Below, one piece after another: positions 2,250-33,238 of a DNA stretch of 64,000 nucleotides (within the stretch, counting starts at the first letter, position 1; each line of letters begins with the position of its first letter). The notes beneath the pieces were generated by a model that was not told where the DNA came from, searched no databases, and saw nothing but the letters and a program-made list of their open reading frames with translations. The translations under genes and the position numbers were made by a program. The stretch covers positions 1,598 through 65,597 of the forward strand of contig CAZKEM010000092.1 of assembly GCA_964551835.1 (NCBI GenBank), given 5' to 3'. This stretch comes from an uncultured Acidimicrobiaceae bacterium. Lineage in GTDB: Bacteria > Actinomycetota > Acidimicrobiia > Acidimicrobiales > SZUA-35.

Positions 2250-3101
2250 GTGAAGTCTGACCCGCAGCATGACCACCTTCCGAACAGACTTCCGAAAGAG
2301 TTTGTCGCTGCTGCTTCCACGGCGGCCCGCACAGTCTTCGGCCCGCGAAGTAAACTCAACCCAAGATTTCAGGCAATCGACTTTGACGGACGGTTCGTGC
2401 CGCTTGTTCAGCTGTACCGCAACCTCAGCTCAACTGACCCAGACAATTGGATGGAGGCGATTTGCTCCCGGCTTGAGCAAATGCTGGAGGTAACAGAACG
2501 ACTTGCAGAAGACACCAGTGATTGGCATCACGCCAGACCGAGACTGCATGTTTGTGTCCGAAAGTCGGGCACCGTAAACGGAATCAGCAAGCCGATCTCG
2601 CCCAACCTTTGCTACACGCTAGTAATCAACACCGAAGACTACTGCGTTCGCGTCACATCTGCAGACCTTCGGTCTTGGCCCGTCGGCAACAACACCGCAT
2701 GGCAAACCGGGCTCGATAACAACACTCGAAATATCGACGTTCAACGAACACTACTGCGCCATGGTGGTGCCGACCTTGAGATCTTCTCCGGAGATCTAAA
2801 CGCCTCGGGGATCGTGACCAACATAGGCAACTATTTCGATCCAAGACTTCCAATGCCCTCGTTGCTCGCCCTGCCGACACACGAAACGGTCGTCCTTATC
2901 CGTCCCAAGAGATCTGTTGCTGGAATGCAGGGGCAGCAACTTAGGGCACTATTGTCGATGTGGTCGACGCAGTCGGAACACCCCCTGACTTCAGAGCTGT
3001 TTACACTCAACAACCAAGGAGATCTGACCATGAGCTGTCCAAACTCAGCCCTTCCGGCGGACGCGACCAGAAAAAGGCTCGGGTTCGAAATACAAATCTG
3101 A
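2250..3101 (+). CDS. hypothetical protein
   Basis: The ORF is open from 2208, but the first 14 codons lie in a very AT-rich tract. GTG at 2250 (VKSDPQHD...) preceded by AAGAGA is the more plausible start. No motif recognised. Confidence 0.5.
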   Translation: MKSDPQHDHLPNRLPKEFVAAASTAARTVFGPRSKLNPRFQAIDFDGRFVPLVQLYRNLSSTDPDNWMEAICSRLEQMLEVTERLAEDTSDWHHARPRLHVCVRKSGTVNGISKPISPNLCYTLVINTEDYCVRVTSADLRSWPVGNNTAWQTGLDNNTRNIDVQRTLLRHGGADLEIFSGDLNASGIVTNIGNYFDPRLPMPSLLALPTHETVVLIRPKRSVAGMQGQQLRALLSMWSTQSEHPLTSELFTLNNQGDLTMSCPNSALPADATRKRLGFEIQI

Positions 3102-3113
3102 GCTGGAAGCGTC

Positions 3114-3119
3114 TAGAAT
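3114..3119 (+). promoter_or_regulatory. candidate -10 hexamer (TAGAAT) 8 nt upstream of ATG 3127
   Basis: TCTAGAATC then gatggg then ATG. Same 8-mer and spacing class as at 1614. Confidence 0.25.
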
Positions 3120-3126
3120 CGATGGG

Positions 3127-15008: not shown

Positions 15009-17549
15009 ATGACAAGCGGAAACTTAGGCAACTTGGGCGATCACATTCGCCAACTTTCTCGGACGCCAAACCTTTTGGTCGCCTGCGACTACGACGGAAC
15101 CCTGGCCCCGCTCGTCGATGACCCGATGAAGGCTCATCCCAATCGTGACTCTGTTGCCGCGCTGCGGCAGCTCGCCGAGCTTTCAAACTCCCATGTCGCT
15201 GTCATATCTGGACGCAGCCTTCGGGATCTTGCGACGCTATCGCGCTTCCCAGAGGAGATCCGTCTCGTCGGCAGCCACGGTAGCGAGTTCGAGCTTGGCT
15301 TTGCATCAAAGCTAAACCCCGATCTGATCCGGCTACGAACCCAAATCACGCAGGCCATCGATGAAATCGCGAGCCGGTACGGTGCTGTCTCTGAAGAGAA
15401 GCCGACCGGGGTAACGTTCCACACGAGGAACTTCGACCAAGAAACCACCGATGCCGCAATAGCCGAAGTCCACTCTGTGGTTTCCCAATTTGACCAAATC
15501 CACACCCGAACGGGCCACGATGTAATCGAGATGTCGGTCATCGAGACCAACAAGGGCACAGCCATCGAGACCATTCGGTCACAGGTAGGGGCTTCGGCGG
15601 TACTTTTTATTGGCGACGATGTTACCGACGAAGACGGTTTCGCAGTACTAACGGGTCCGGACATTGGTGTGAAAGTAGGGCCTGCTCCAACGGCTGCCCC
15701 GTTCCGTGTAACGAGCACCGAAACGGTCGCAGAAATTCTGGCGCTTATTGCAGAGCTTCGAGGCTCCTGGCTACGTGGCGCAGGTTTAACGCCGATCGAA
15801 GATCACTCGGTTCTGTCTGACCTACGAACCGCGGCGGTACTAGCTCCCGACACCAACGTAACCTGGATGTGCGCCCCGAGGATTGATTCGGCCTCCATTT
15901 TCGCCGAACTATTGGGCGGTCCAGCGGCCGGCCACTTCAGGATCAAGCCGTCAGATGGTTCCGATGCTTTACGTCAGCGATACATCGCCAATACGATGCA
16001 TACGAAGACCGATTTCGACAAGTTCTCAGTAATAGACTTCCTTGATGTCTCTAGCGGACGTACCCGCCGCAAGGCTGGGCGCACCGACCTAATCCGGACA
16101 ATTCGAGGGTCGGGGGAAGTCCAAATCGAGTTTGCGCCACGAGTTAACTTTGGGCGGACTCCAACGCTACTAGAGGTCCGCCCTGATGGCATCGTGGTCA
16201 ACGGTGGCGCCGACCTGATGGTTCTACGCTCCGAAGGCGTCAACTGGACCGTCACGAAAGACGGCGTTCACGAGACGGCGGTTGGCACCGCTACGTTGGG
16301 CGACGACGCGCTAGTCCTTGAGCTTCGCTGCGGAAGTGGGACCCTTAAGCCTGGAGCAAAACTTGCCGTCGATCGCCAAAGTGACAGCGAAGAGTACTGG
16401 GCTAGTTGGGTCAAAAAGCTCACCCTTCCCAAGCTTCAACAAGCTCGGGTTTCGAGAAGCGCATTGGTGTTGAAGTCTCTCTGCCATGGACCGACGGGCG
16501 CTATTTTGGCGGCGGCTACAACCAGCCTGCCGGAACATATCGGCGGTGTCCGCAACTGGGACTACCGTTATTGCTGGCTTCGTGATGCCGCTCTGACCGC
16601 GGCGAGTCTGGTGCGTCTTGGTTCGAATGGCGAAGCAATGAGCTATCTCGACTGGGTCTTGCGGATCCTGGAAACAGGTAAGGAACCAGAACGACTTTCA
16701 CCTCTCTACAACGTGGCCGGCCACCATCTACCGCCAGAGGCCGAAATAGCAGAACTCCCGGGGTACGGAAGTTCCCGACCAGTCCGAATCGGAAATGCTG
16801 CCGACGGTCAGGTCCAACTCGACGTGTTCGGGCCGATAGTCGATTTAGTTCACGTGTTGCTCAACAGCGGCGAAGAACTTTCGACTGAACATTGGCGACT
16901 TGTCGAGGCCATGGTGCTGGCCGTTTCTCGTCGTTGGAAAGAGCCGGATCATGGGATTTGGGAAATCCGCAAACCGGCACGCCATCATGTGTACACCAAA
17001 GTAATGTGTTGGGTCACGGTCGATCGGGCCATCGCAATCGCCCGGGAGTTTCTTGACCGCGAACCCAAAGCATGGATTGCTTTACGTGAAGAGATCGCAA
17101 ACGACGTAACAGCTAACGGCTGGAAACCAGGCCTGAATAGCTTTACAGCAGCATACGTCGGTGACGATCTCGACGCATCGGTCTTAGCAATCGGCATGTG
17201 GGGGCTTCTCGATCCGAAAGACCCAAGGTTCGTGGCCACGGTCGAGGCGGTAGTCAAAGGTCTGCAAGACGGACCAACCGTGTACCGTTACCTCGACGAT
17301 GACGGCCTTCCGGGCAAAGAAGGCGGCTTTCACCTGATGACTACATGGCTGATCGAGTCCTTAGCGCTTATCGGCCGCACCGACGACGCAAACATGTTGT
17401 TTCAAGAATTCTGTGATCTTACTGGGGCGACCGGCTTGCTCAGCGAGGAGTTCGACCCCGAGAGCGGTCAGGCGTTGGGCAACTTGCCGCAGGCCTATTC
17501 CCATCTTGGGCTAATCAACAATGCAATCTTGCTCGAGAAACTATCGTAG
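15009..17549 (+). CDS. otsB: trehalose-6-phosphate phosphatase (HAD) fused to glycoside hydrolase family 15 (trehalase/glucoamylase-like) domain
   Basis: 846 aa. HAD motifs LLVACDYDGTL and FIGDDVTDEDGF. The GH15 N-domain reads DLRTAAVLAPDTNVTWMCAPRIDSASIFAELLG. The catalytic domain has VRNWDYRYCWLRDAA and LSEEFDPESGQALGNLPQAYSHLGLINNA. Confidence 0.85.
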   Translation: MTSGNLGNLGDHIRQLSRTPNLLVACDYDGTLAPLVDDPMKAHPNRDSVAALRQLAELSNSHVAVISGRSLRDLATLSRFPEEIRLVGSHGSEFELGFASKLNPDLIRLRTQITQAIDEIASRYGAVSEEKPTGVTFHTRNFDQETTDAAIAEVHSVVSQFDQIHTRTGHDVIEMSVIETNKGTAIETIRSQVGASAVLFIGDDVTDEDGFAVLTGPDIGVKVGPAPTAAPFRVTSTETVAEILALIAELRGSWLRGAGLTPIEDHSVLSDLRTAAVLAPDTNVTWMCAPRIDSASIFAELLGGPAAGHFRIKPSDGSDALRQRYIANTMHTKTDFDKFSVIDFLDVSSGRTRRKAGRTDLIRTIRGSGEVQIEFAPRVNFGRTPTLLEVRPDGIVVNGGADLMVLRSEGVNWTVTKDGVHETAVGTATLGDDALVLELRCGSGTLKPGAKLAVDRQSDSEEYWASWVKKLTLPKLQQARVSRSALVLKSLCHGPTGAILAAATTSLPEHIGGVRNWDYRYCWLRDAALTAASLVRLGSNGEAMSYLDWVLRILETGKEPERLSPLYNVAGHHLPPEAEIAELPGYGSSRPVRIGNAADGQVQLDVFGPIVDLVHVLLNSGEELSTEHWRLVEAMVLAVSRRWKEPDHGIWEIRKPARHHVYTKVMCWVTVDRAIAIAREFLDREPKAWIALREEIANDVTANGWKPGLNSFTAAYVGDDLDASVLAIGMWGLLDPKDPRFVATVEAVVKGLQDGPTVYRYLDDDGLPGKEGGFHLMTTWLIESLALIGRTDDANMLFQEFCDLTGATGLLSEEFDPESGQALGNLPQAYSHLGLINNAILLEKLS

Positions 17550-20514: not shown

Positions 20515-21846
20515 GTGGAACGACAAATATCATACGTGCTCAGAACAGTCGAAGAGCGAAAAATAAAACTGATCCGTTTTTGGTTCACCGACGTTCAAGG
20601 CCAACTCAAGTCAATGGCCATATCGCCGGTCGAACTCGAAGTGGCGCTATTTGAGGGTGTTCACTTCGATGGTTCAGCGATCGATGGCTTTAGCCGCGTC
20701 CAAGAATCCGACGTTCTCGCGAGACCTGACCCAGCGACGTTCCAGATTCTGCCGTGGGCCGATGGCGGCACGACAGCGCGAATGTTCTGCAATATCTATG
20801 ACCCCTCTGGCGAACCATTTAAAGGCGATCCCCGAAACATACTTCGACGCAACTTACTTGAAGCCCAAGACAAAGGTCAATCATTTTACGTCGCACCCGA
20901 AATGGAGTTTTTCTATTTCAAAGACGGCGACTCGCCTCGGCCTGAACCCATCGATTCAGGTGGCTACTTCGACCTGACTACCGCCGACGTCGCGTCGGAC
21001 CTTAGGCGAAAGACAATCTCTGTTCTCGAATCGATGGGGATTCCGGTTGAATATTCCTTTCACGAAGATGCTCCAAGCCAACACGAAATCGACCTTCGCT
21101 ACACAGATGCGATGGCGATGGCTGACAAGATCATGACGTTTCGGCTTGTCGTTAGGGAGTTGGCTCTCGAACAAGGGCTCCTGGCAAGCTTTCTGCCAAA
21201 GCCTATTGAAGATGTCCAAGGCTCTGGAATGCATTTACATCTGTCGTTGTTCAACGGCGGGGACAAGAACCTATTTCATGACCCTGAGGCTAAGTACGGG
21301 CTCTCAAAAACAGGGCAACAATTCATGGCTGGTCTTTTGCATCATGCGCCCGAAATCACAGCGGTCACTAACCCCTTAGTCAACTCGTATAAACGCCTCG
21401 TCCCAGGATTTGAAGCGCCGGGGTGGGTCACCTGGGCCCGGAACAACCGATCGTCTTTGATTCGGGTTCCGATTACAAAGCCGGACAAAGAGACGTCGAC
21501 TCGGATCGAGTACCGCTCCCCCGACCCCACCTGTAACCCATACTTGGCTTTCTCGGTCCTGCTGGCAGCTGGGACAAAAGGAATCGCCGAAGGTTACGAA
21601 CTATCTGAAGAAGTGGCACAGAACACATCCAAACTCTCGGAACAAGAAATCGATAGACTTGGTATCGCGCCGCTACCTCGCTCACTCAACGAAGCCTTAG
21701 AGGCAATGGAACAATCTGAATTAGTTCACAACGCGTTGGGGGAACATGTTTTCGAGTGGTTCTTACGTAACAAGCGAAGCGAATGGCGCGCCTACAAGTC
21801 TCACGTGACTCAATGGGAACTCGACACGTACCTTCCAAACTGGTAG
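20515..21846 (+). CDS. glnA: type I glutamine synthetase, GlnA2-like (443 aa form)
   Basis: The N-terminus ERQISYVLRTVEERKIKLIRFWFTDVQGQLKSMAISP..FDGSAIDGF closely follows actinobacterial GlnA2. Catalytic-domain blocks include HEDAPSQHEIDL and GSGMHLHLSLF. GTG start. Confidence 0.9.
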   Translation: MERQISYVLRTVEERKIKLIRFWFTDVQGQLKSMAISPVELEVALFEGVHFDGSAIDGFSRVQESDVLARPDPATFQILPWADGGTTARMFCNIYDPSGEPFKGDPRNILRRNLLEAQDKGQSFYVAPEMEFFYFKDGDSPRPEPIDSGGYFDLTTADVASDLRRKTISVLESMGIPVEYSFHEDAPSQHEIDLRYTDAMAMADKIMTFRLVVRELALEQGLLASFLPKPIEDVQGSGMHLHLSLFNGGDKNLFHDPEAKYGLSKTGQQFMAGLLHHAPEITAVTNPLVNSYKRLVPGFEAPGWVTWARNNRSSLIRVPITKPDKETSTRIEYRSPDPTCNPYLAFSVLLAAGTKGIAEGYELSEEVAQNTSKLSEQEIDRLGIAPLPRSLNEALEAMEQSELVHNALGEHVFEWFLRNKRSEWRAYKSHVTQWELDTYLPNW

Positions 21847-21850
21847 CCCC

Positions 21851-22516
21851 ATGACCGAGTCGTTTCTGCTATTCCCCGACCCTGCCCCGCCTGAAGTTGT
21901 CCGCTGCCTAGATCTCGCCGACTACGAGTGGAAAACCGCTGAGCTTGCGAGTCCAGCTCAGCACGATGAGGACTGGACTGGAGCAATCATCGACTTAAGC
22001 ACCGAGCCAACTGAAGGCTGGCAACTCTGCAAGCGACTCAAGCGGGGCGATTTGCCAGTCGAACCGTTGCTTGTGCTGGTTGCAGGCAATCAGCTTCCGG
22101 ACATGCAGCTCCGAGATGACCTCTTCGATGACTTCATGATTACTCCGTTCCACCCGTTAGAACTCGAGGCGAGGCTCCGACATCTGCTTTGGAAGGCTGG
22201 CAGAGGTGCCCGACCTGAGGTGCTCTCCTATGGGCCTCTGACAATCAATATCGATACCTATCAGGCTGAGGTTGACAGCCGCAAGATGGACCTTACCTTC
22301 ATGGAGTACGAGCTTCTGAAGTTTCTGACGTCAAACCCAGGGCGAGTATTCGACCGAGAAACTCTTCTCAGCAGAGTCTGGGGTTACGAATACTATGGTG
22401 GAGCGAGAACGGTCGACGTCCACATCCGGCGGCTCCGAACCAAGCTTGGAGAAGAACACGCTCACCTTATCCAAACCGTCCGCAGCGTCGGCTACAAGCT
22501 TGGGCAGGCTCGTTAA
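21851..22516 (+). CDS. glnR: GlnR-type OmpR-family nitrogen regulator with atypical receiver domain
   Basis: 221 aa. The C-terminal wHTH MDLTFMEYELLKFLTSNPGRVFDRETLLSRVWGYEYYGGARTVDVHIRRLRTKLG..VRSVGYKL closely resembles actinobacterial GlnR. The receiver-like N-domain is degenerate. Confidence 0.75.
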   Translation: MTESFLLFPDPAPPEVVRCLDLADYEWKTAELASPAQHDEDWTGAIIDLSTEPTEGWQLCKRLKRGDLPVEPLLVLVAGNQLPDMQLRDDLFDDFMITPFHPLELEARLRHLLWKAGRGARPEVLSYGPLTINIDTYQAEVDSRKMDLTFMEYELLKFLTSNPGRVFDRETLLSRVWGYEYYGGARTVDVHIRRLRTKLGEEHAHLIQTVRSVGYKLGQAR

Positions 22517-25500
22517 GACTCGTACTGTTCAGATGCCCGCAACGCAATCGTCGAGATGCGGTACCCGGCATCGGTTTCGACCAGCCAGAGGTCGCTTCGG
22601 CGTCGTTCGAACGGATGTGATTCGAGCTGGCTTCCATCAGCGTCGAGTAGAACATACGGTGGGTGTGCGACTTCGACTTCCAACCGGACTGGCGCATCGG
22701 TGTTTATTACATTCACGGTAAGCACCATTGGTTTCTCCGCAATAATTTTATGCCCGGCTTCGAGGTAGTGTGAACGCATCTCCTGGGCCATTTCGTAGAC
22801 TTCGGTGCCCGGGGCATAGACCTCGTCGACGGAGTGGTCGCCAGGCGACGACGCAAGTTGAAAGTCAGCTAGAATCAACCGACTAGCCTCGGCCGACCAG
22901 TCGACGTTCGATCGAGTCCTCGATGGGAAAGGCTTCGGTCGCTCGGGACTGGGGTTACGACCGTCCGATGACCGACGTGCGAAGAGTCCAATGAACCCGG
23001 CCTTCGATGTCCGACGAACTTTGCTTGATCGACTCTGACCGGCTTGCATCTCTGGGACTGGTTTTTGAGGACCTTCCAGAAGCGACCGTTTGACGAGTGC
23101 TGTATGCATCTCGGCCACTGACCCAAATCGTCTCGACGCTCGTTTATCTACCGCCTTTTCGACGACATCTCTAAACCAGTTCGGCACGCCGGTCAGCGGT
23201 GCAAGTTCTTCGGTTGCCACCCGGTTAAAAATCGTTGGAATCTCGTCGCTATCCGAATCGTCAGAAACGAACGGACGACGCCCAGCGACCATCGACCATA
23301 ACAGGACGCCAAGTCCGTAAACATCGACCAGCCCCCCGTCAGAGCCCTTATTGCCAACCGCTAGAACTTCGGGCGGAGAGTAATTGGGGGTGAAGGCCGG
23401 CCGGGACGATAACGAACGTCCATCTACTATCTCGGTTGACCCGAAGTCGAGCAGGTGAGGTTGACCATCAGCGTCGAGCAACACATTGCTGGGCTTTAGA
23501 TCTCGGTGGAAAACCCCTCTGCGGTGACACGCAGCTAAGGTCTCGGCCAACTTACAGCCTAATTCGTAGGCCTCATGCCAGTTATACGGTTGGTTTCGGA
23601 TTCCGTTCGCGATTGTCCCACCCTCGAGGTAGCTCAAGACCAAATATGGCGAGCCTCCCTCCGTCACGCCTGAGCCCAAAAGCTCCACGACGCCATCTAC
23701 TTCTGACAATGCCTCCAAGGCATCTTTCTCCCGATCGAACCGACGCCGCCCGCTTTCGCTATTGGTGGTGGTTAGGACTTTCAGAGCTACGACAGAACCA
23801 GCCGAATCGACTGCTCGATAAACGACAGCGAATCCACCCTCTCCTACGATCGTCAAGTCAGAAAATCCATCTATTGGTTCAGGCGTGGAATCGGTTTGTC
23901 GGTCGTCCTCGATTTGGTCGTCAGAAGATTCAGGCGACTCGGTCACTTCTGAGGTCGAGGGAGCAACTTCGTCAATGTCTTCGTCAATTTCGAGATCCGA
24001 ACCGTCAGGCACGGCGTCGATAGGACTCTCTTCTCGGTCATTGGTCAGAGAAGGTTCGAAGCCAGTCGATCGAGCTAGCGGGCGCAGCCTGGACGGTTTC
24101 GCCGGCCGAGCACGCTGCCGGGCCAGAGGCTGCGTGGCAAACGCAAGCATCGACGGACCCACCGAAGTTAACTTGTTCGGAGTGAGTGACGACAACGACC
24201 ACTCCGATCCGAACGTCGAGCCATACCGAAGAACTGCAGGTAGTAACACGTTGATGGCTGCAGTAACGACCGCCGGCACAACGACGAACGCCATTCCTAT
24301 CGGCCTGATAAACGGGGCGTCAGCGAACATCCATGCTGACCCAATGGCTGCGAGCGAACAAAACCCGGCACTCGATGACCTCATCGGGGTTCGCATTCGA
24401 TAAGCCACCGACCCATACCGAGGACTTGATACCGAACGATGTTCAAACGTACCGCGTTCCTTAGACGTCCAATATGAAACCTCGAACCATCCCAGAGCTA
24501 TCGAAACCACAAGAACCACTAACACCAGCTCGTCTACCGAGCCAGCCGAAACAAGTGCTGAACCGATACCGATCGAACCCAATAGGAGAAACAGCCGAGT
24601 AGCAAAAAACAGCAGCACGGTCGAAGGGCTCCCGCCAACCGCAAGAGCTGCCACTAGCGCAGCGAGACAACTGATGAGCACGAGAGACATAAGCAGCGAC
24701 CCACTCCGCCGTTCCAGGTCAACTTCGTCAAGCCGGGTACCGTCGACTCTGAAGCCCAACGTTTCTTCCCGCTCTTGGAGATCTAAGACTAGTTGCTGGG
24801 TAGATCGAGATCGCTCGCCACCGTTCGGCACCACCAAAACCATTTGAGAGTCATCCGTGTCCAGGCCAACAAACGGACGACTCCGCCCAATCTCGGCATT
24901 GTCGACACTGAGACCTTGTCGTACCAAAGCAGACGACGTTTGCACCATTTGCACTGCTGGCCAGTTTGATACTTCGACGACAAACCGATCGACTAATTCG
25001 GTTTCGGGTTTCGGTGAAGCTGTGAGCACGATCGCCTCAGTCAGATCACCTGCACTCGCTAGTTCGGCCGCCAAGGAAGAACGAACCTCTAAGGAACTTT
25101 GGTCCAGAGAACCAGCAGACGGGCGGCCGAAGGAGTTCAGGACACCCACTACCGTTACGAACACGATCACGCCAGCCACGCTGAGCTTAATAATCTTGGC
25201 CAGTTCTTGTTCACGAAGGACATCCAGAAGCCGCGGCGAAGGTCGACCAAAACTAACTCCACCAACCTCAACCAGCAACGAACCTAACGCCACGCCAACA
25301 ATCGCCCCAGCACAAGCACCAATCAAGATACTGAGCGTCGGGTTGCTCGGTGGAAAAAACAGCTCGACAAACAACCAAACAAGGAATAGTTGGCCGATGA
25401 CAACGGCCATTGGAAAAGCTTGCCCACGGACTACGTCGAAGCTACGAACCATGGTCGACCGCCGATCGCCTGATGCTGAAGGGGTGCGGGTCGCGTGGTA

Positions 25501-26205
25501 GCCGATCACTGCCACAACAATTTGGCTAGCGGCGATTGCCGGCAGGTTCGTCGAGAGTACTGACCCGTTAAAGCCCGGGTTCAATAGTGAACCCAGGATC
25601 GTGGCTAACGTAGCGGAAGCGCCAAGTCCGCAAGCAACCCCAATGCCAACCCGCCACCCATAGGTGAGCGCTAGAATGGCGCCAGCGACAACCGACACCA
25701 AGCCAACGGCGAGCAACGCTTCTCGTTCGATCGATTGACGCAGCCGAACATCCGCTGAGCCGGATCCTAGTACGAATGTCGAAGAGGCCGTCGTATTGGT
25801 CTCGACGATGTTTTCGACCTGGTCTAAAAGTTCTGGGTCGGCGTGTTGGTCAGAGTTGATGTAAATGACAGAGGTGTCCACCGAAGTTGGCACAACAGCA
25901 AAATTCGATGTTTCGGTTGTCTTGAGGAGAGCCAAAGAAATAGCCTCGACGTCGCCTTGGAGAGCTGCCGCATCTCCCTGTACCACAATTGCCAAGTCTG
26001 GCGTCTTCCCCTCAGACCACATAGTCACGTTTGACTGGGCAGACGCCGAACTGAAGATTGCTGTGATACAGAACAGCACAAGACCGAATCCAACCAAGGC
26101 CTGACACAAATATTCTCGATGAGTTAAGAAGTCGTTAAAGCGGCTGTCTGAACGCCCATCGGAATTGGGTCTTCCCATACTGCGTCTCACTGGTCTACCC
26201 TGCAT
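22513..26205 (-). CDS. RND/MMPL-like 12-TM membrane domain fused to Ser/Thr protein kinase domain and a C-terminal unknown domain
   Basis: 1230 aa. Topology is TM1, about 100-aa loop, TM2-6, TM7, about 145-aa loop, TM8-12. An acidic linker is followed by an intact Hanks kinase: GEGGFAVVYRA, VALKVL, HRDLKPSNVLL, DFGS, SPPEVL, DVYGLGVLLW. The last 140 aa or so are unassigned. Confidence 0.8.
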   Translation of the reverse strand: MQGRPVRRSMGRPNSDGRSDSRFNDFLTHREYLCQALVGFGLVLFCITAIFSSASAQSNVTMWSEGKTPDLAIVVQGDAAALQGDVEAISLALLKTTETSNFAVVPTSVDTSVIYINSDQHADPELLDQVENIVETNTTASSTFVLGSGSADVRLRQSIEREALLAVGLVSVVAGAILALTYGWRVGIGVACGLGASATLATILGSLLNPGFNGSVLSTNLPAIAASQIVVAVIGYHATRTPSASGDRRSTMVRSFDVVRGQAFPMAVVIGQLFLVWLFVELFFPPSNPTLSILIGACAGAIVGVALGSLLVEVGGVSFGRPSPRLLDVLREQELAKIIKLSVAGVIVFVTVVGVLNSFGRPSAGSLDQSSLEVRSSLAAELASAGDLTEAIVLTASPKPETELVDRFVVEVSNWPAVQMVQTSSALVRQGLSVDNAEIGRSRPFVGLDTDDSQMVLVVPNGGERSRSTQQLVLDLQEREETLGFRVDGTRLDEVDLERRSGSLLMSLVLISCLAALVAALAVGGSPSTVLLFFATRLFLLLGSIGIGSALVSAGSVDELVLVVLVVSIALGWFEVSYWTSKERGTFEHRSVSSPRYGSVAYRMRTPMRSSSAGFCSLAAIGSAWMFADAPFIRPIGMAFVVVPAVVTAAINVLLPAVLRYGSTFGSEWSLSSLTPNKLTSVGPSMLAFATQPLARQRARPAKPSRLRPLARSTGFEPSLTNDREESPIDAVPDGSDLEIDEDIDEVAPSTSEVTESPESSDDQIEDDRQTDSTPEPIDGFSDLTIVGEGGFAVVYRAVDSAGSVVALKVLTTTNSESGRRRFDREKDALEALSEVDGVVELLGSGVTEGGSPYLVLSYLEGGTIANGIRNQPYNWHEAYELGCKLAETLAACHRRGVFHRDLKPSNVLLDADGQPHLLDFGSTEIVDGRSLSSRPAFTPNYSPPEVLAVGNKGSDGGLVDVYGLGVLLWSMVAGRRPFVSDDSDSDEIPTIFNRVATEELAPLTGVPNWFRDVVEKAVDKRASRRFGSVAEMHTALVKRSLLEGPQKPVPEMQAGQSRSSKVRRTSKAGFIGLFARRSSDGRNPSPERPKPFPSRTRSNVDWSAEASRLILADFQLASSPGDHSVDEVYAPGTEVYEMAQEMRSHYLEAGHKIIAEKPMVLTVNVINTDAPVRLEVEVAHPPYVLLDADGSQLESHPFERRRSDLWLVETDAGYRISTIALRASEQYES

Positions 26206-26382
26206 CTAGGTTGGTGTGGAACAATCGTAGCTGACAGGTTGCGCCCAGCTTCATCGACAAATCGAATTTATTTGAAGGCACCCGCCCTAGGAGCGGGTGA
26301 TAGTGACGGTGCCTCACGAAATCTACGAGACGAATGGACGACCTCGACCTATCTGTGCGACTGACTCGTCTATGGTGGGAGT

Positions 26383-27807
26383 ATGAAACAACAGGGGATA
26401 CAGAACCTCGTTGTCGCTGCCAACCGCCTACCTGTTCGAAAAGTCACAGACCCAAACGGGGAACAAACTTGGAAAACCAGCCCTGGCGGGCTCGTCTCTG
26501 CTCTAGCGCCTTCGATATCGAACACCGAACGCCTTCAATGGATTGGTTGGGCCGGTGACGTTATAGGCCCTGACGACCCGCCCGACAATGGCATCGAACC
26601 GTTTGTTGTCGATGGCATCGAACTCCAACCTGTCGCATTGACCAAAGAAGAGAAGAGCCTTCACTACGATGGCATGTCAAACGGCACGCTTTGGCCGCTG
26701 TACCATGACAAGGTTGGCCCGGTAGCATTCCACCGCCACTGGTACCTTGGCTACAAGACCGTCAACCAACGATTCGCAGACGCGATATCGAGCGTGGCTC
26801 CCAAGGGAGCAACTGTCTGGATCCACGACTACCAACTTCAACTCGTTCCGGCGATGATCAAGGAGAACCGACCCGATCTTAAAGTCGGCTTCTTCTTACA
26901 TATCCCATTTCCGCCTGAAGAGCTGTTTATGCAGCTCCCCTGGAGGCGGTCCCTGGCAAAGGGAATCCTCGGTAGCGACTTGGTTGGTTTCCAAACACCG
27001 GACGGTGCTGACAATTTTCGACGACTCATTCGGGCCATCGAATTGGTTGAAGGCGACAGCGACGACAATGTTATCTATGAAGGTCGCGAAGTCGCCATCG
27101 GAACCTTCCCGATCGGCATTGTTGGCGAACGATACGAGTCGGTCGCCAGAAGCGAAGCCACGACTATGCGCACTCAGGACTTGCGCGCTCGTCTTGGCCA
27201 ACCCCATGTAGTGTTACTGGGCGTCGATCGTCTCGACTATACAAAAGGCATCGATGTGAGGCTTCGGGCCTTCAAAGAACTTTTGGCTGAAGGTCGGGTT
27301 AGCCCGACTCGCGTTTCTATGGTCCAAGTCGCTGAACCGTCTCGTGACAACGTGAAGGCGTATATCGCCCTTCGGGCCAAGGTCGAACAGTTGGTTGGTG
27401 AAATCAATGGCGACTACGGACGCGTCGGTTTTCCAGTTGTGAACTATATTCACCAAACGCACGGTTTGGAAGAGTTGATCTCGCTGTACCGAGTCGCAGA
27501 CGTGATGGTCGTGACCCCTTTTAGGGATGGTATGAATCTGGTAGCGAAAGAATACGTCTCCTGTCGATACGACAACACTGGCGTGCTCGTTCTCTCCGAA
27601 TTCGCCGGAGCCGCCCATGACCTTGAAGGTGCGCTGCTCGTAAATCCACACGATATCGACGGGCTGAAAGATGCTTTAGTCCAAGCCATCGGCATGGCCT
27701 CAACTGAAGCTGAACAACGTATGGAGAAGATGCGGGAGACAGTTCAAGACAACGATGCGGTCAGTTGGGCAAGTAGTTTCCTACAGGCGATTCCTCAAAT
27801 CGATTAG
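26383..27807 (+). CDS. otsA: alpha,alpha-trehalose-phosphate synthase (GT20)
   Basis: 474 aa. VVAANRLPV, PGGLVSAL, WIGW, FFLHIPFPP, LLGVDRLDYTKGI, PFRDGMNLVAKEY. SD GGGAG upstream of the ATG. Confidence 0.9.
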   Translation: MKQQGIQNLVVAANRLPVRKVTDPNGEQTWKTSPGGLVSALAPSISNTERLQWIGWAGDVIGPDDPPDNGIEPFVVDGIELQPVALTKEEKSLHYDGMSNGTLWPLYHDKVGPVAFHRHWYLGYKTVNQRFADAISSVAPKGATVWIHDYQLQLVPAMIKENRPDLKVGFFLHIPFPPEELFMQLPWRRSLAKGILGSDLVGFQTPDGADNFRRLIRAIELVEGDSDDNVIYEGREVAIGTFPIGIVGERYESVARSEATTMRTQDLRARLGQPHVVLLGVDRLDYTKGIDVRLRAFKELLAEGRVSPTRVSMVQVAEPSRDNVKAYIALRAKVEQLVGEINGDYGRVGFPVVNYIHQTHGLEELISLYRVADVMVVTPFRDGMNLVAKEYVSCRYDNTGVLVLSEFAGAAHDLEGALLVNPHDIDGLKDALVQAIGMASTEAEQRMEKMRETVQDNDAVSWASSFLQAIPQID

Positions 27808-30248: not shown

Positions 30249-32627
30249 GTGTCTGACATGGATGAAACTCCAACTTCGCGATCAAGCTGGTTTGGCTTTG
30301 AAAGAGTACGCGTTGATTACAAGAATCACGCGGTTGATATTACGGTCGGGTCTGAGACGGCTTGGGACCGTTCCCACCTTCGCCGACTCCGCCAGTCGAG
30401 CGATCTACCTGGACTCGTCCCAATCATCGATGCCGATGTCTCTTCTGAGGGACGGCCTTATGCCATAACCTCAGCAGTCGACGAACCAACCCTGGCCGAC
30501 CTTTTAGCGGCCGATGACGGCGTTAGCTGGAATGACAGCACAGGTATCACCGAAGCAGCTGCAAGAGCATGCCACGACGCCCATGAACGAGGTCTCTTTC
30601 ACGGTTCGATAAGCCCTAGCGATATTTATGTAATAGGCGACGAGATTGCAGTCGACGGTCTAGGGCTGACCCGAGGCGGAGGCGTCCCCGCCGACCGTTC
30701 CCAGTGGGTCGCGCCAGAAGTCCTCGCTGGCGACGCACCAACTGCACGATCCGATGTCTACTCCCTCGGCAAGCTTCTCGAAACGGCACTTGGCGACTCG
30801 ATCGAACTCGTACCTCGTTCCGTCAAACGATTGATGATGTGGTCTAGCTCTGATTCGGCTGATACCCGACCCCGCACGGCTTCGGAGTTCGCAGAGATCC
30901 TCAGCGACGGACTAGGAGACGCTAAGAGCTCGTATCGTCCTGCATTTATCCCAACGATACGGGCCAACAACCTTACGGAAGATGCGGAACGGGCGGTCGC
31001 AGACACCCAGACAGATATCGCCCTTGCATCTGTCGTCACGTCTGAAATCGAAGTTGAATCTCAAACAGAAGTTGAATCACAGACACTGACGGACGAAGAC
31101 TCCGTCGAAACGCCTGATGACATCAGCGTGGATGACGACGCGACCGAACAACTCGACACTGTCGACCTTGAGCGGGTCCCTCAAGAAGACGACATAACCG
31201 AAGAAGTCTCGCTGACAACCGACCCAGCCGAGGCCACATCCGATGATGAGGAGAGCTCAGGTTCGTTGACGAAAGCGGCCGGCGCAGCAGCAGCGGTAGG
31301 TGCTGCAGGAGCAGCCTCAAGCAAATTGGGCAGCAACAAGGGGGCTTCAGGCGACGCCGACTCCGACAGTTCGAAGAGCGGCTCTAAATCAAAGGGCTCC
31401 AAGAAAACGAAAACCAGCGCCAAAACTAAGACCAGTAAAGGTTCTCCCAAGAAAGCAGTGGAAGAGACCACCAAGACCGCTGGAATTGCCGCCAGCGAAG
31501 CAGTGACCGTCAAAAGTACCGGCACAAGTAATGCAGACAAATTTTCCTACCAAGACGTGTCACTAACTGAAGATCGTGGGATGTCTCGGTTTTTAATCCC
31601 AGCCCTTATTGTAGTTGCAATACCATTCCTAATCTGGGCTCTCGTTCGTTCAGGCGGCGGCGGCACTGATACTGCTGACTCTTCTCCTAATACGACGTCA
31701 GGAGCCAGTCAAGCAGGTCCAGCTATTACCGAGGGCACTGAACCAGACAGCGTGGAAAACGCCGTTCCTCCAGTTTCCGAAGCACCAGAAACCACACCAG
31801 CACCAGAAACCACACCAGCACCAGAGACCACACCAGCACCAGAACCGGTCAGCGAAGCACCGGCGGCTATCGCTGCTTCCGATGCAGCGATCCAGGTAGT
31901 TCACGCCGTCCCGGAAACACCGGTTGACGTCTATGTCGATGGCGAACTCACCGCACCCGCATTCCAACCTGAGAGCATTGCCGGCCCTGTCGACCTGGAA
32001 GCAGGCGATCACGACATTGCGATATTCGCAGCCGAAACTAATCCTGCGCAGTCCGCCGACGACCGTACCGACGATGCCGTTATAGAGCAGACAGTCACCG
32101 CCTCAGGTGATCCGACAACGTTGGTAGCCCACCTCGATGACAGTGAGAACCCGGTGCTCAGCGCATTTGCAGAGAGCTTAACCGAGCTCGAGGCTGGCGA
32201 AACCCGTGTTGTGGTAAGAAACCTAACCACGACCGCCGGGGACGCTACCGTAGTTGTCGATGGAGTAGAACAGTCTGCCCCTCTAGCAAATGGAGACGAA
32301 CTCGAAATCGTTCTTCCTGCTGGGGAACATACCATCACCATGCTAGGCACAAACGGCGAAGAGGTCTTCAGTTCAGATCTGGACCTAGTCGAAGGTGAAC
32401 TGACAACAGTCGGATTCATCGGATCGTCTAGAATCGGATCGGAAAGCGTCGTTGTTCAACGATATTCTGGCCTTGGTTCCGCTCCTTCAGAAGTACCAAC
32501 TGGCGACTCTGGGCTCTTAGAAGGAGGTCCAAGCTCCGGAGGGGCTCGGACGGTTATTGGCCTTGTCCTTATGATGCTGCTAAGCGGCGCCATGATTGCA
32601 TTCAAGCGTCGCCGCAGCATGGTATGA
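30249..32627 (+). CDS. pseudokinase / TM / tandem DUF4397-like ectodomain protein with C-terminal sorting-signal-like tail
   Basis: 792 aa. The kinase-like core has WVAPEVL and SDVYSLGKLL, but the catalytic loop is FHGSISPSD (no HRD Asp/Lys), and there is no Gly loop and no VAIK Lys. Acidic and Lys/Ser-rich linkers precede a TM (FLIPALIVVAIPFLIWALV). (APETTP)3 is followed by two DUF4397-like units (IQVVHAVPETPVDVYVDG, TRVVVRNLTT..ATVVVDG). The tail is EVPTGDSG...hydrophobic...KRRRSMV. Confidence 0.75.
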   Translation: MSDMDETPTSRSSWFGFERVRVDYKNHAVDITVGSETAWDRSHLRRLRQSSDLPGLVPIIDADVSSEGRPYAITSAVDEPTLADLLAADDGVSWNDSTGITEAAARACHDAHERGLFHGSISPSDIYVIGDEIAVDGLGLTRGGGVPADRSQWVAPEVLAGDAPTARSDVYSLGKLLETALGDSIELVPRSVKRLMMWSSSDSADTRPRTASEFAEILSDGLGDAKSSYRPAFIPTIRANNLTEDAERAVADTQTDIALASVVTSEIEVESQTEVESQTLTDEDSVETPDDISVDDDATEQLDTVDLERVPQEDDITEEVSLTTDPAEATSDDEESSGSLTKAAGAAAAVGAAGAASSKLGSNKGASGDADSDSSKSGSKSKGSKKTKTSAKTKTSKGSPKKAVEETTKTAGIAASEAVTVKSTGTSNADKFSYQDVSLTEDRGMSRFLIPALIVVAIPFLIWALVRSGGGGTDTADSSPNTTSGASQAGPAITEGTEPDSVENAVPPVSEAPETTPAPETTPAPETTPAPEPVSEAPAAIAASDAAIQVVHAVPETPVDVYVDGELTAPAFQPESIAGPVDLEAGDHDIAIFAAETNPAQSADDRTDDAVIEQTVTASGDPTTLVAHLDDSENPVLSAFAESLTELEAGETRVVVRNLTTTAGDATVVVDGVEQSAPLANGDELEIVLPAGEHTITMLGTNGEEVFSSDLDLVEGELTTVGFIGSSRIGSESVVVQRYSGLGSAPSEVPTGDSGLLEGGPSSGGARTVIGLVLMMLLSGAMIAFKRRRSMV
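31782..31847 (+). repeat. 3.6 x 18-bp in-frame tandem repeat encoding (APETTP)n
   Basis: gcaccagaaaccacacca repeated, with one synonymous change in copy 3. Confidence 0.9.
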
Positions 32628-33238
32628 ACCGAAAGTTCCTTTCCGGAACGTTCGGCCTTATAGCCACCGTAGCAATGGTGGCGGCGGCAGGAACCGGGGG
32701 CGCGACAGCCTCCGCTGACCCTGATGCACCCCAACAACCAGCCAACACGGCAGCTGTACCAATTCGCTCGGGTAACCCCTTGGATGTACAACCATCCAAG
32801 GGACCTCGACCGGTAAGCATAAGGGTTGGAGACCTCAACCTCGACGCATCCGTTATCCCAGTCGGCGTCGACGACGAAAAGCGACTCGATGTCCCTTCCG
32901 CGGACTTAGTCGGCTGGTACCAGTACAGCGCGACCCCTGGTGAGACGGGTACAACAGTCCTAGCAGCCCATGTTGACTATGGCGGCGAAGAAGGTGTCTT
33001 CTTCAACCTTGACCAATTGCAAATCAACCAGCGCTTCGAGGTAGAACTCGAGGACGGCAGTATTAGACAATACCAAGTGACGGCAAACTCAACTTATAAC
33101 AAAGTCGACCTTCCTGGTGAAGAGCTATTCCGCAAAGACGGCGAGCCAACACTTCAGCTGGTCACGTGCGGCGGAGAGTTCGATGCGGACGCACGTTCGT
33201 ACGAAGCAAACGTTGTGGTAAGCGCTGTCCCAGTCTAA
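32624..33238 (+). CDS. class F-type sortase
   Basis: 204 aa. N-terminal signal/anchor, active-site His (LAAHVDYGG), the TC motif LQLVTCGG and a downstream Arg. The ATG overlaps the upstream stop (ATGA). Confidence 0.8.
   Translation: MNRKFLSGTFGLIATVAMVAAAGTGGATASADPDAPQQPANTAAVPIRSGNPLDVQPSKGPRPVSIRVGDLNLDASVIPVGVDDEKRLDVPSADLVGWYQYSATPGETGTTVLAAHVDYGGEEGVFFNLDQLQINQRFEVELEDGSIRQYQVTANSTYNKVDLPGEELFRKDGEPTLQLVTCGGEFDADARSYEANVVVSAVPV

What the first reader, a model, noticed from the sequence alone, without database searches (positions are those of the whole stretch)
22513..26205. Unusual fusion: 12-TM RND/MMPL-like transporter body with a C-terminal active Ser/Thr kinase
- Bacterial Hanks kinases normally have an N-terminal kinase domain, one TM helix and an extracellular sensor.
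- Here the first 690 aa or so show the RND/MMPL topology: TM1, a large loop, TM2-6, TM7, a large loop, TM8-12.
- An acidic linker follows. Then comes a kinase domain with all catalytic motifs intact (GEGGFAVVY, VALK, HRDLKPSN, DFG, PPE).
- A further 140-aa domain of unknown type (VLTVNVINTDAPVRLEVEVAHPPYVLLDADG...WLVETDAGYRI) ends the protein.
- This would couple a proton-motive-force-driven lipid/glycolipid exporter-type module directly to phosphosignalling.
- The gene is divergent from otsA across only 177 bp, and an otsB-GH15 gene lies 5 kb away. That is suggestive because MmpL transporters export trehalose lipids in mycolata.
Basis: partly seen in the sequence, partly recalled or inferred. 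Interest (0 to 1): 0.75.

Follow-up and report, generated by a model that had tools for sequence, protein, structure and literature searches.

The report
MmpL-like membrane protein with built-in kinase
A real gene from uncultured Acidimicrobiales encodes a distant relative of the mycobacterial MmpL lipid exporters that has an apparently active Ser/Thr kinase inserted into its cytoplasmic tail. I found no description of this combination, and it puts on one protein a regulation that mycobacteria carry out with separate proteins.

Summary
The 1230-aa ORF at 22513..26205(-) is real and has the described layout.

- **Not an artefact.** The same full-length fusion occurs in three other independent assemblies, at 54% identity and in the same gene neighbourhood.
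- **Membrane body.** No single sequence scores against Pfam MMPL. A profile of the family hits only MmpL3 in the PDB (E=3e-6, colinear over 560 positions). It also matches PF03176 proteins by hhalign (96%) and shows the RND internal duplication. Both MmpL3 Asp-Tyr proton-relay pairs are missing; only Glu575 (TM10) and Arg537 are conserved.
- **Kinase.** All Hanks motifs are intact. The kinase is not terminal.
- **Tail domain.** The last 125 aa form an NTF2-like domain (AlphaFold pLDDT 95; Foldseek best match ARC6/PARC6).
- **Evolution.** Fourteen kinase-less relatives carry the body plus this tail, so the kinase was inserted into the tail linker in one sublineage.
- **otsA link.** Proximity to otsA is conserved in every locus I could examine. 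aroA is conserved with it wherever the contig extends that far. This looks like inherited gene order and is weak evidence for a trehalose-lipid role.

Function is inferred: most likely a membrane-tethered kinase that reads or regulates the RND-like body. This would be a one-protein version of PknA/B acting on MmpL3, and an active counterpart of the MviN pseudokinase fusion. I rate it a new variant of known kinds, of moderate to high interest.

The parts
22513..26205 (-). Whole ORF, 1230 aa from the first ATG. The likely true start is the conserved GTG at 26190, giving 1225 aa.
   Evidence: The GTG is conserved in L001/L009 while the window's ATGs are not. The database gene call P0001 starts at M10.
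26032..26205 (-). aa 1-58: basic cytoplasmic N-terminus plus TM1, followed by a family-conserved A-x-A (ASA|QS).
   Evidence: Hydropathy. A54 and A56 are conserved across the family.
25732..26031 (-). aa 59-158: periplasmic domain 1. It is predicted as beta-alpha-beta-beta-alpha-beta (ferredoxin-like, as in RND porter subdomains) and ends in the conserved G147...D152 motif.
   Evidence: Low-confidence single-sequence model, DSSP only. It pairs with PD2 in the internal-repeat alignment.
25246..25731 (-). aa 159-320: TM2-TM6. Contains the F212-x-G214...T219..P222 motif at TM4. The post-TM4 loop GD(247)...VRS matches MmpL3 EGYDTEAAVRRTV. V233/I234 stand where MmpL3 has the D256/Y257 relay pair.
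25120..25245 (-). aa 321-362: cytoplasmic loop (conserved R331) plus TM7.
24709..25119 (-). aa 363-499: periplasmic domain 2, with family-invariant D368, G386-D387 and R465.
24220..24708 (-). aa 500-662: TM8-TM12. Carries conserved R537 (TM9), E559 and F574-E575 (TM10; E575 aligns with MmpL3 E647) and P656 (TM12).
   Evidence: HMMER versus MmpL3; hhalign 96% versus PF03176 proteins; conservation
23869..24219 (-). aa 663-779: acidic, Ser/Thr/Pro-rich linker, presumably disordered. It varies in length between homologues.
   Evidence: 25 D+E and 28 S+T in 117 aa. Identity to L001 is 26%, with 50 indel columns.
23086..23868 (-). aa 780-1040: Hanks-type Ser/Thr kinase domain with all motifs intact (G789-x-G-x-x-A, K808, HRDLKPSN, DFG, SPPE).
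   Evidence: Pfam PF00069 E=5.8e-39. Best PDB matches are StkP and PknB. Identity to L001 is 75% with no indels.
22912..23085 (-). aa 1041-1098: basic Ser/Arg-rich linker with a conserved GF..LFARR segment.
22540..22911 (-). aa 1099-1222: NTF2-like domain, ancestral to the family. Invariant residues are W1103, H1181-P1182, E1200, W1207 and Y1215-R1216.
   Evidence: AF2 pLDDT 95.1. Foldseek best matches are the ARC6/PARC6 IMS domain (E 5e-5, TM 0.59-0.65), then Tim44, the CaMKII hub and VirB8. It is present in 13 of the 14 kinase-less relatives; P0011 ends before it.
26206..26382 (.). Divergent intergenic region shared with otsA. Long blocks are conserved with L001/L009 and are probably promoters or 5'UTRs.
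26383..27807 (+). otsA (trehalose-6-phosphate synthase, GT20), the divergent neighbour.
   Evidence: Pfam E=7e-140. It is 91% identical to the L001 orthologue.
21851..22516 (+). GlnR-like orphan OmpR-type regulator. It is convergent and overlaps the 3' end of the gene by 4 bp. glnA lies upstream at 20515..21846. This adjacency occurs only in the kinase clade.
   Evidence: compared

Best explanation
**What is shown**
- This is a genuine single polypeptide found in a small clade of uncultured Acidimicrobiales.
- It has five parts in order: a divergent MMPL-type RND membrane body (12 TM helices, two periplasmic porter-like domains), an acidic disordered linker, a catalytically competent Hanks Ser/Thr kinase, a basic linker, and an NTF2-like domain.
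- The ancestral protein, still present in related Acidimicrobiales, was the body plus the NTF2-like tail. It is a fast-evolving positional orthologue next to the aroA-otsA block.
- The kinase was inserted into the tail linker in one sublineage.

**What is inferred**
- RND topology puts the C-terminus in the cytoplasm, so the kinase is held at the cytoplasmic face of the body.
- Its activation would then depend on the conformation or clustering of the RND-like body. Hanks kinases are typically activated by dimerisation and trans-autophosphorylation.
- Its first substrates are probably its own Ser/Thr-rich linkers.
- That would make it a one-protein version of the regulation of the MmpL3 tail by PknA/PknB, and an active counterpart of the mycobacterial MviN-pseudokinase fusion.
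- Phospho-linkers could recruit FHA-domain proteins, or the kinase could act on soluble targets such as the adjacent GlnR-like regulator.
- The canonical Asp-Tyr relay is missing, so the body may act more as a sensor or anchor than as a canonical proton-driven pump.
For: **The fusion is real**
- Full-length collinear homologues (54% identity) occur in MAG JAHDCC010000009 (L001) and in two further assemblies (L009, L010), with the same neighbours.
- Identity to L001 follows the domain boundaries: kinase 75%, NTF2 72%, TM regions 60-64%, linkers 26-34% with indels.

**MMPL/RND homology**
- The family profile hits only MmpL3 chains in the PDB. E=3e-6, profile positions 85-644 against MmpL3 120-729.
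- The only non-family hits in the 5.8-billion-protein search are two PF03176 proteins.
- hhalign against those two gives 96% probability, E=5e-9.
- The N-half aligns with the C-half at E=2.7e-5 over 251 columns.

**Kinase**
- Pfam E=5.8e-39, with all motifs aligned to StkP and PknB.

**Kinase insertion**
- All 14 kinase-less relatives found by exhaustive HMMER have the body, and 13 also carry the homologous tail domain. None has a kinase.
- The kinase clade keeps 51 family-conserved residues in both the body and the tail.

**NTF2-like fold**
- pLDDT 95.1; Foldseek probability 1.0 to ARC6/PARC6, Tim44 and the CaMKII hub.

**Precedents from the literature**
- PknD is reported to phosphorylate MmpL7 (PMC2877116).
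- MviN is a transmembrane protein with a pseudokinase domain at residues 710-942 that PknB phosphorylates to recruit FhaA (PMC12599244).

**Possible partners in the window**
- An FHA-domain protein and a second STPK are encoded in the window.
Against: - There are no functional data of any kind. Kinase activity, substrates, oligomeric state and transport are all inferred.
- No confident 3D model of the body was obtained. The single-sequence AF2 model had pLDDT 43 and gave no significant Foldseek hit.
- The body keeps conserved intramembrane E575 and R537 and conserved periplasmic motifs. It may therefore still be an active transporter and not a sensor.
- The glnR adjacency could be coincidental.
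- I could not take a census of RND+kinase architectures outside this family.
Confidence: 0.5

Rival explanations
1. The body is an active proton-motive-force-driven exporter of a trehalose-containing lipid or glycolipid, functionally linked to otsA/otsB. The kinase reports or tunes export flux.
For: - MmpL3, the trehalose monomycolate exporter, is the only solved structure matched.
- otsA lies within 0.2-7 kb, in divergent orientation, in every locus whose upstream flank I could examine.
- An otsB-GH15 fusion lies 5 kb away.
- Kinase-less relatives have a thiolase-like TLP1_add_C gene between otsA and the family gene.
- E575, R537 and E559 are conserved within TM helices and might form an alternative relay.
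Against: - Both Asp-Tyr pairs that drive MmpL3 are absent from the whole family.
- aroA is conserved with otsA wherever the contig extends that far, and sodN is conserved where the contig reaches it. Housekeeping neighbours are 56-64% identical where the family protein is 22-26%. The adjacency therefore fits inherited gene order.
- There are no pks, fadD or acyltransferase genes in the neighbourhood.
- I found no literature on MmpL proteins or trehalose lipids in Acidimicrobiia.
Confidence: 0.3
2. The kinase domain is a scaffold, functionally a pseudokinase as in MviN. It would be phosphorylated by other STPKs and recruit FHA-domain proteins, without catalysing phosphotransfer itself.
For: - The MviN precedent.
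- Another STPK and an FHA-domain protein are encoded in the window.
Against: - All catalytic motifs are canonical (VALK, HRDLKPSN, DFG, SPPE). MviN instead has VALT, LSIDHPSR and Y--.
- The domain is 75% identical to L001 with every motif retained.
Confidence: 0.07
3. The long ORF is an assembly or frameshift artefact joining a transporter gene and a kinase gene, or the membrane part is an unrelated polytopic domain.
For: - No single-sequence Pfam or NCBIfam hit for aa 1-700.
- One kinase-less relative is split into two ORFs (L008).
Against: - The same uninterrupted architecture is present in four independent assemblies (window, L001, L009, L010).
- Homology continues on both sides of the kinase in a single reading frame.
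- Profile-level homology to MMPL is significant and collinear.
Confidence: 0.02

Closest known systems
MmpL3 / MMPL family (Pfam PF03176) of the RND superfamily
   Same: - 12-TM layout with two periplasmic domains after TM1 and TM7, and an internal duplication.
- Collinear profile match from TM2 to TM12.
- Shared motifs: Pro in TM4, the post-TM4 loop 'G.D...A.RR.V', Glu at the MmpL3 E647 position, Pro in TM12.
- A cytoplasmic C-terminal extension.
   Different: - Single sequences do not reach the PF03176 threshold.
- Both Asp-Tyr relay pairs are absent.
- The tail is a folded NTF2-like domain, whereas MmpL3 has a disordered tail.
- A kinase is built in.
- The host is an acidimicrobial lineage, not a mycolate-producing one.
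Regulation of MmpL3 by PknA/PknB/PstP, and of MmpL7 by PknD, acting as separate proteins
   Same: A Hanks kinase acts at the cytoplasmic tail of an MMPL protein.
   Different: Here the kinase and the MMPL-like body are one polypeptide. Phosphorylation of its own linkers is inferred, not shown.
M. tuberculosis MviN (Rv3910): polytopic membrane protein with a cytoplasmic pseudokinase domain (aa 710-942)
   Same: An actinobacterial polytopic envelope membrane protein followed by a kinase-fold domain at about the same distance from the N-terminus. The MviN domain forms back-to-back dimers and recruits an FHA-domain protein.
   Different: - MviN's membrane domain is not of the RND type. From my own knowledge it belongs to the MurJ/MOP family.
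- MviN's kinase fold is degenerate (VALT, no HRD, no DFG). Here every motif is intact.
- What follows the kinase fold differs. From my own knowledge, MviN continues with one more TM helix and an extracellular carbohydrate-binding domain. Here a cytoplasmic NTF2-like domain follows.
PknB/StkP-type receptor Ser/Thr kinases
   Same: The kinase domain is most similar to StkP and PknB (E about 1e-24 to 1e-20) and has the same catalytic motifs.
   Different: The canonical order is N-terminal kinase, one TM helix, extracellular PASTA or other sensor. Here the kinase follows 12 TM helices and lies between two other modules.
NTF2-like domains: ARC6/PARC6 intermembrane-space domain, Tim44 C-terminal domain, CaMKII association (hub) domain
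   Same: Same alpha+beta cone fold (Foldseek probability 1.0, TM 0.5-0.65). The order kinase, basic segment, linker, NTF2-like domain resembles CaMKII.
   Different: - There is no sequence-level family membership (no Pfam hit, identity 9-18%).
- The domain predates the kinase in this family, so any CaMKII-like arrangement would be convergent.
- Its ligand or partner is unknown.

Membership tests
RND superfamily | 12 TM helices arranged as TM1, large extracytoplasmic loop, TM2-6, then TM7, large loop, TM8-12 | tested here: met
   Hydropathy. TM11 is placed by its alignment to MmpL3.
RND superfamily | Internal duplication: the N-terminal half is homologous to the C-terminal half | tested here: met
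   hhalign of the two half-profiles: E=2.7e-5, probability 74%, 251 collinear columns. TM1 pairs with TM7, PD1 with PD2 and TM2-5 with TM8-11.
MMPL family (PF03176) | The sequence scores above the Pfam gathering threshold for PF03176 | tested here: not met
   No PF03176 hit at E<=1 for the window protein and four other members (P0012-P0015), nor at E<=0.01 for P0002-P0011.
MMPL family (PF03176) | Profile-level homology to bona fide MMPL proteins over the whole body | tested here: met
   - Family profile versus PDB: only MmpL3 is hit, E=3e-6, 560 collinear positions.
- hhalign versus two PF03176 proteins: 96%, E=5e-9, covering the TM8-12 half.
- PF03176 proteins are the only outgroup hits in the 5.8-billion-protein search.
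MMPL family (MmpL3-type mechanism) | Asp-Tyr proton-relay pairs in TM4 (D256/Y257) and TM10 (D645/Y646) | tested here: not met
   The aligned residues are V233/I234 in TM4. In TM10, Y646 aligns with F574 and D645 falls in an alignment gap, opposite W573 if read without the gap. Only E575 is retained, at the E647 position.
MMPL family | Exports a lipid or glycolipid using the proton-motive force | not testable with these tools
   Needs transport or lipidomic assays.
Hanks-type Ser/Thr protein kinases (PF00069) | Pfam match above threshold, plus a Gly-rich loop, VAIK Lys, alphaC Glu, HRDxxxxN, DFG, APE, and the subdomain IX Asp and XI Arg | tested here: met
   134.5 bits against a cut-off of 31.7. 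Motifs GEGGFA, VALK, RE, HRDLKPSN, DFG, SPPE, DVYGLG and RRF align to StkP.
Hanks-type Ser/Thr protein kinases | Catalytic activity (autophosphorylation) | not testable with these tools
   Requires an in vitro assay.
NTF2-like superfamily | Alpha+beta cone fold: N-terminal helices packed on a curved antiparallel sheet | tested here: met
   AF2 pLDDT 95.1, pTM 0.86. Elements are H5-21 and H37-52 followed by seven strands. Foldseek finds ARC6/PARC6, Tim44, SnoaL-like, CaMKII hub and VirB8 at probability about 1.0.
ARC6-like IMS, Tim44 or SnoaL sequence families | A significant sequence match to the family model | tested here: not met
   No member has a significant Pfam hit at E<=10. The best are spurious matches such as PH0730-like_N at 0.012. 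The profile has no PDB sequence hit better than E=0.3.

The most novel reading that the evidence does not exclude
The RND-like body has given up pumping and works as a Patched- or SCAP-style ligand or lipid sensor for the kinase, making this a bacterial 'RND receptor kinase'. The order kinase, basic GF..LFARR segment, linker, NTF2-like domain would work like CaMKII. The NTF2-like domain would oligomerise the protein or bind a partner's C-terminus. The basic segment would act as an autoinhibitory pseudosubstrate released by autophosphorylation. Envelope-lipid status would thereby be converted into a switch-like phospho-signal, possibly acting on the adjacent GlnR-like regulator.
Probability: 0.12. 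Interest if true: 0.85.

Novelty: new variant of a known kind. Interest (0 to 1): 0.58.

Why it matters
**One-protein version of a known regulation.** Ser/Thr kinases are known to regulate MmpL transporters as separate proteins in mycobacteria, but how tail phosphorylation changes transporter activity is unclear (PMC10171966). A natural single-chain version fixes the kinase-transporter pairing. That makes the coupling directly testable by biochemistry and by structure.

**A new sensor type for bacterial kinases.** If the body acts as the sensor, RND-fold membrane domains would join the repertoire of bacterial Hanks-kinase sensor modules, otherwise dominated by single-pass receptors with PASTA or beta-propeller domains. 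Whether it does so is inferred, not shown.

**An unannotated family.** The work also defines an MMPL-like plus NTF2-like family with no Pfam model. It is restricted, as far as I could see, to Acidimicrobiales. It evolves much faster than its housekeeping neighbours.

**Limits.** Only one 50%-identity cluster carries the kinase, all members come from uncultured organisms, and nothing is known experimentally.

Tried and rejected
**Searches that found nothing**
- Single-sequence Pfam, NCBIfam and PDB sequence searches of aa 1-700 gave nothing.
- The word-indexed homologue search with aa 1-697 gave no hits. Exhaustive HMMER was needed.
- The search for related loci on metagenomes with the family alignment failed because no stretch was conserved enough.
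- Exact-product lookup of the 1230-aa ORF failed because the database gene call starts at M10.
- Sequence-profile searches for the tail domain against PDB and Pfam gave only noise: a DNA polymerase II intein-like segment, MukE and PH0730-like_N.
- Literature searches for MMPL+Pkinase architectures, for Acidimicrobiia with MmpL and trehalose, and for RND-kinase fusions returned nothing.

**Weak structural results**
- The single-sequence AlphaFold model of the body was poor (pLDDT 43), and its Foldseek search had no significant hit. MmpL3 and MmpL5 appeared only among non-significant matches. I do not use this as evidence.

**Ideas considered and set aside**
- Assembly artefact: rejected.
- FtsX/MacB-type or other polytopic fold: rejected, because the only PDB hits are MmpL3.
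- A functional otsA operon: the genes are divergent, and the synteny is regional.
- A CaMKII-type hub reading of the NTF2-like domain: kept only as the speculative novel case.

Full report
**1. The observation**

The ORF at 22513..26205 on the minus strand is present and uninterrupted, 1230 aa long.

- A Kyte-Doolittle scan gives TM1 at ~33-55, a 100-aa loop, five helices between 160 and 315, TM7 at 336-360, a 137-aa loop, then helices at 502-578 and 636-660.
- TM11 (~609-629) is only weakly hydrophobic. I place it by alignment to MmpL3 TM11.
- Pfam finds one domain, Pkinase at aa 783-1029 (E=5.8e-39). It finds nothing for the first 700 residues or for the last 140. NCBIfam agrees.
- otsA (GT20) is the divergent neighbour.
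- The otsB-TREH_N-GH15 fusion lies at 15009..17549.

The description is therefore accurate.

**2. Artefact or real gene**

- A scan of one genome per species found a single relative, in Acidimicrobiales MAG JAHDCC010000009 (L001). It encodes a 1303-aa ORF that aligns end to end at 54% identity, including body, kinase and tail. Its neighbours are the same: otsA divergent, a GlnR-like regulator and glnA convergent, plus sodN, aroA and a DUF4397 protein.
- A near-identical variant, P0016 (1287 aa), has one fewer acidic linker repeat. It occurs on two further contigs from different samples (L009, L010) in the same context.
- Identity between the window and L001 follows the domain boundaries:

| Module | Identity to L001 | Indels |
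|---|---|---|
| Kinase | 75% | none |
| NTF2-like tail | 72% | none |
| TM blocks | 60-64% | few or none |
| Periplasmic domains | ~50% | none |
| Two linkers | 26-34% | many |

This is the pattern expected for a real multidomain protein under selection. The frameshift or mis-assembly hypothesis is rejected.

**3. What the membrane body is**

- The word-indexed search with aa 1-697 found nothing.
- An exhaustive HMMER scan of 1.84 billion cluster representatives found only 15 clusters. One is the window's own; the other 14 are distant relatives (24-27% identity, 613-1241 aa).
- None of the 14 has any Pfam domain, and none has a kinase.
- A profile of these sequences (A1) hits only MmpL3 chains among 177,635 PDB sequences. 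E=3e-6, in one collinear stretch from profile positions 85-644 to MmpL3 120-729.
- The same profile, searched against 5.8 billion proteins, recovers only two outgroup proteins, both PF03176 MMPL proteins.
- hhalign against those two gives 96% probability (E=5e-9) over TM8-12.
- The N-terminal half-profile aligns with the C-terminal half (E=2.7e-5, 251 columns). This is the internal duplication typical of RND proteins.

I conclude that the body is a distant, previously unmodelled MMPL-like branch of the RND superfamily. It fails membership at the Pfam threshold but passes at profile level.

**4. The proton relay**

In MmpL3, two Asp-Tyr pairs (TM4 D256/Y257 and TM10 D645/Y646) carry the proton that powers transport (PMC10171966).

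- In both independent alignments the TM4 pair corresponds to V233/I234.
- The TM10 Tyr corresponds to F574. The Asp falls in a gap, opposite W573 if read without the gap.
- Only E575 is retained, at the MmpL3 E647 position.
- This holds for the whole family, not only for the kinase clade.
- Conserved intramembrane charges are limited to R537 (TM9), E559 and E575 (TM10).

So 'PMF-driven exporter' is not supported as stated. An alternative relay cannot be excluded.

**5. The tail domain and the order of events**

- The full alignment (A2) shows that 13 of the 14 kinase-less relatives end in a ~125-aa domain homologous to the last domain of the window protein. The exception, P0011, is shorter and ends before it. 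Invariant residues are L1110, P1121, P1159, H1181-P1182, E1200, W1207 and R1216.
- The ancestral architecture is therefore body, linker, tail. The kinase was inserted into the linker in one sublineage.
- Sequence methods could not name the domain.
- AlphaFold2 with the 15-sequence alignment gave a confident model: pLDDT 95.1, pTM 0.86, two long helices followed by a curved sheet.
- Foldseek places it in the NTF2-like fold. The best matches are the ARC6/PARC6 intermembrane-space domains (E 5e-5, TM 0.59-0.65), then Tim44, SnoaL-like proteins, the CaMKII hub and VirB8.
- The kinase clade retains 51 family-conserved residues across the body and the tail. The ancestral function was probably kept, with the kinase added to it.

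**6. Genomic context**

- The context of five kinase-less members could be examined (L002, L003, L005, L007 and the split gene in L008). All lie in the same region.
- That region runs aroA, sometimes an alcohol dehydrogenase, then otsA, and then the family gene. Between otsA and the family gene there is often a thiolase-like TLP1_add_C gene and/or an S15 peptidase gene. L003 also has three unrelated genes there.
- Downstream lie cystathionine beta-synthase and cystathionine gamma-lyase genes, with sodN further on.
- In the kinase clade the intervening genes are absent, so otsA is directly adjacent. glnR-glnA replace the downstream genes.
- Housekeeping neighbours are far more conserved than the family protein:

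| Comparison with the window | otsA | sodN | aroA | Family protein |
|---|---|---|---|---|
| L001 | 91% | 88% | 73% | 54% |
| Kinase-less loci | 56-60% | 61-64% | 57-59% | 22-26% |

- These are positional orthologues in a conserved chromosomal segment, and the family protein evolves fast. otsA proximity is real and conserved, but inheritance of gene order explains it. It is weak evidence for a trehalose-lipid substrate.
- The otsA-gene intergenic DNA is strongly conserved between the window and L001/L009. It shows that the conserved start is GTG at 26190.

**7. Mechanism**

Shown:
- An RND/MMPL-like body.
- A motif-complete kinase.
- A folded NTF2-like tail.
- Ser/Thr-rich flexible linkers on both sides of the kinase.

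Placed by RND topology:
- The tail modules are cytoplasmic. The N-terminus is basic and there are 12 TM helices.

Inferred:
- The kinase is tethered at the membrane, so its activation depends on the state or clustering of the body.
- Its own linkers are the nearest substrates.

Precedents for the inferred steps:
- PknA, PknB and PstP phosphoregulate the MmpL3 tail (PMC10171966).
- PknD is reported to phosphorylate MmpL7 (cited in PMC2877116).
- M. tuberculosis MviN has a pseudokinase domain at residues 710-942 that PknB phosphorylates to recruit FhaA (PMC12599244).
- Standard bacterial receptor kinases have a cytoplasmic kinase domain, one TM segment and an extracellular domain such as PASTA (PMC6213207).

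The window also encodes an FHA-trypsin-like protein and another STPK. I could not decide whether the body still pumps, which is the rival model, or mainly senses.

**8. Novelty and verdict**

- Within this family, only one of 15 clusters at 50% identity carries the kinase.
- Literature searches for an MMPL or RND plus Hanks-kinase fusion found nothing.
- I could not take a census of domain architectures outside the family.
- The parts are all known kinds and the logic has precedents. I therefore rate it a new variant of a known kind: a new architecture together with a new MMPL-like/NTF2-like family.
- Interest is moderate to high. Limits are restriction to a few uncultured genomes and the absence of functional data.

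Noticed in passing
window 26032-26070 (aa ~46-58): TM1 is followed by an A-x-A motif (ASA|QS) that is conserved across the family (A54, A56). It looks like a type-I signal-peptidase site. Cleavage would leave an 11-TM RND-like protein, which would be unusual.
   Followed up: partly
window 26178-26205 and L001/L009 upstream regions: Neither window ATG (26205, 26178) is conserved in the homologues. GTG at 26190, with an upstream CAGG, is conserved and is probably the true start. The otsA-gene intergenic DNA is much better conserved than the protein (88% mean column identity across window, L001 and L009).
   Followed up: yes
window 15009-17549 (+): A single 846-aa protein joins a trehalose-phosphatase domain, a trehalase-like N-terminal domain and GH15. 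Trehalose-making and putative trehalose-degrading modules therefore sit in one polypeptide.
   Followed up: partly
window 30249-32627 (+) and 32624-33238 (+); L001:3324-5879 and 2710-3327: A 792-aa protein has a degenerate kinase-like N-terminus (Pfam E=0.03 in the window; 7e-5 in the L001 orthologue) and a DUF4397 domain. A sortase gene overlaps its 3' end by 4 bp. It may be a pseudokinase/sortase pair, and it is conserved in L001.
   Followed up: partly
window 21851-22516 (+) and 20515-21846 (+): glnA and a GlnR-like orphan regulator converge on the kinase gene, and the 3' ends overlap by 4 bp. This adjacency occurs only in the kinase-bearing clade. Kinase-less relatives have PALP and Cys_Met_Meta_PP genes there instead.
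   Followed up: partly
L001:10016-13927 versus P0016 (L009): The acidic linker of the L001-type homologue contains tandem ~16-aa repeats (EEGQSEPSVQEASSDV). The copy number differs between near-identical strains (1303 versus 1287 aa).
   Followed up: no
L008:6334-8690: In one relative the family gene is split into adjacent 553-aa and 229-aa ORFs. This is either a frameshift or sequencing error, or a natural split between the body and the NTF2-like tail.
   Followed up: no
window 3-1604 (+) and 7243-9213 (+): The window also encodes an FHA plus trypsin-like protease fusion and a second Ser/Thr kinase (656 aa). The organism therefore has a wider phospho-Ser/Thr signalling toolkit nearby.
   Followed up: no
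whole gene compared with neighbours (window versus L001, L002, L003, L007): The fusion protein and its kinase-less orthologues evolve much faster than the flanking housekeeping genes (54% versus 73-91%, and 22-26% versus 56-64%). The periplasmic domains and the linkers change fastest.
   Followed up: yes
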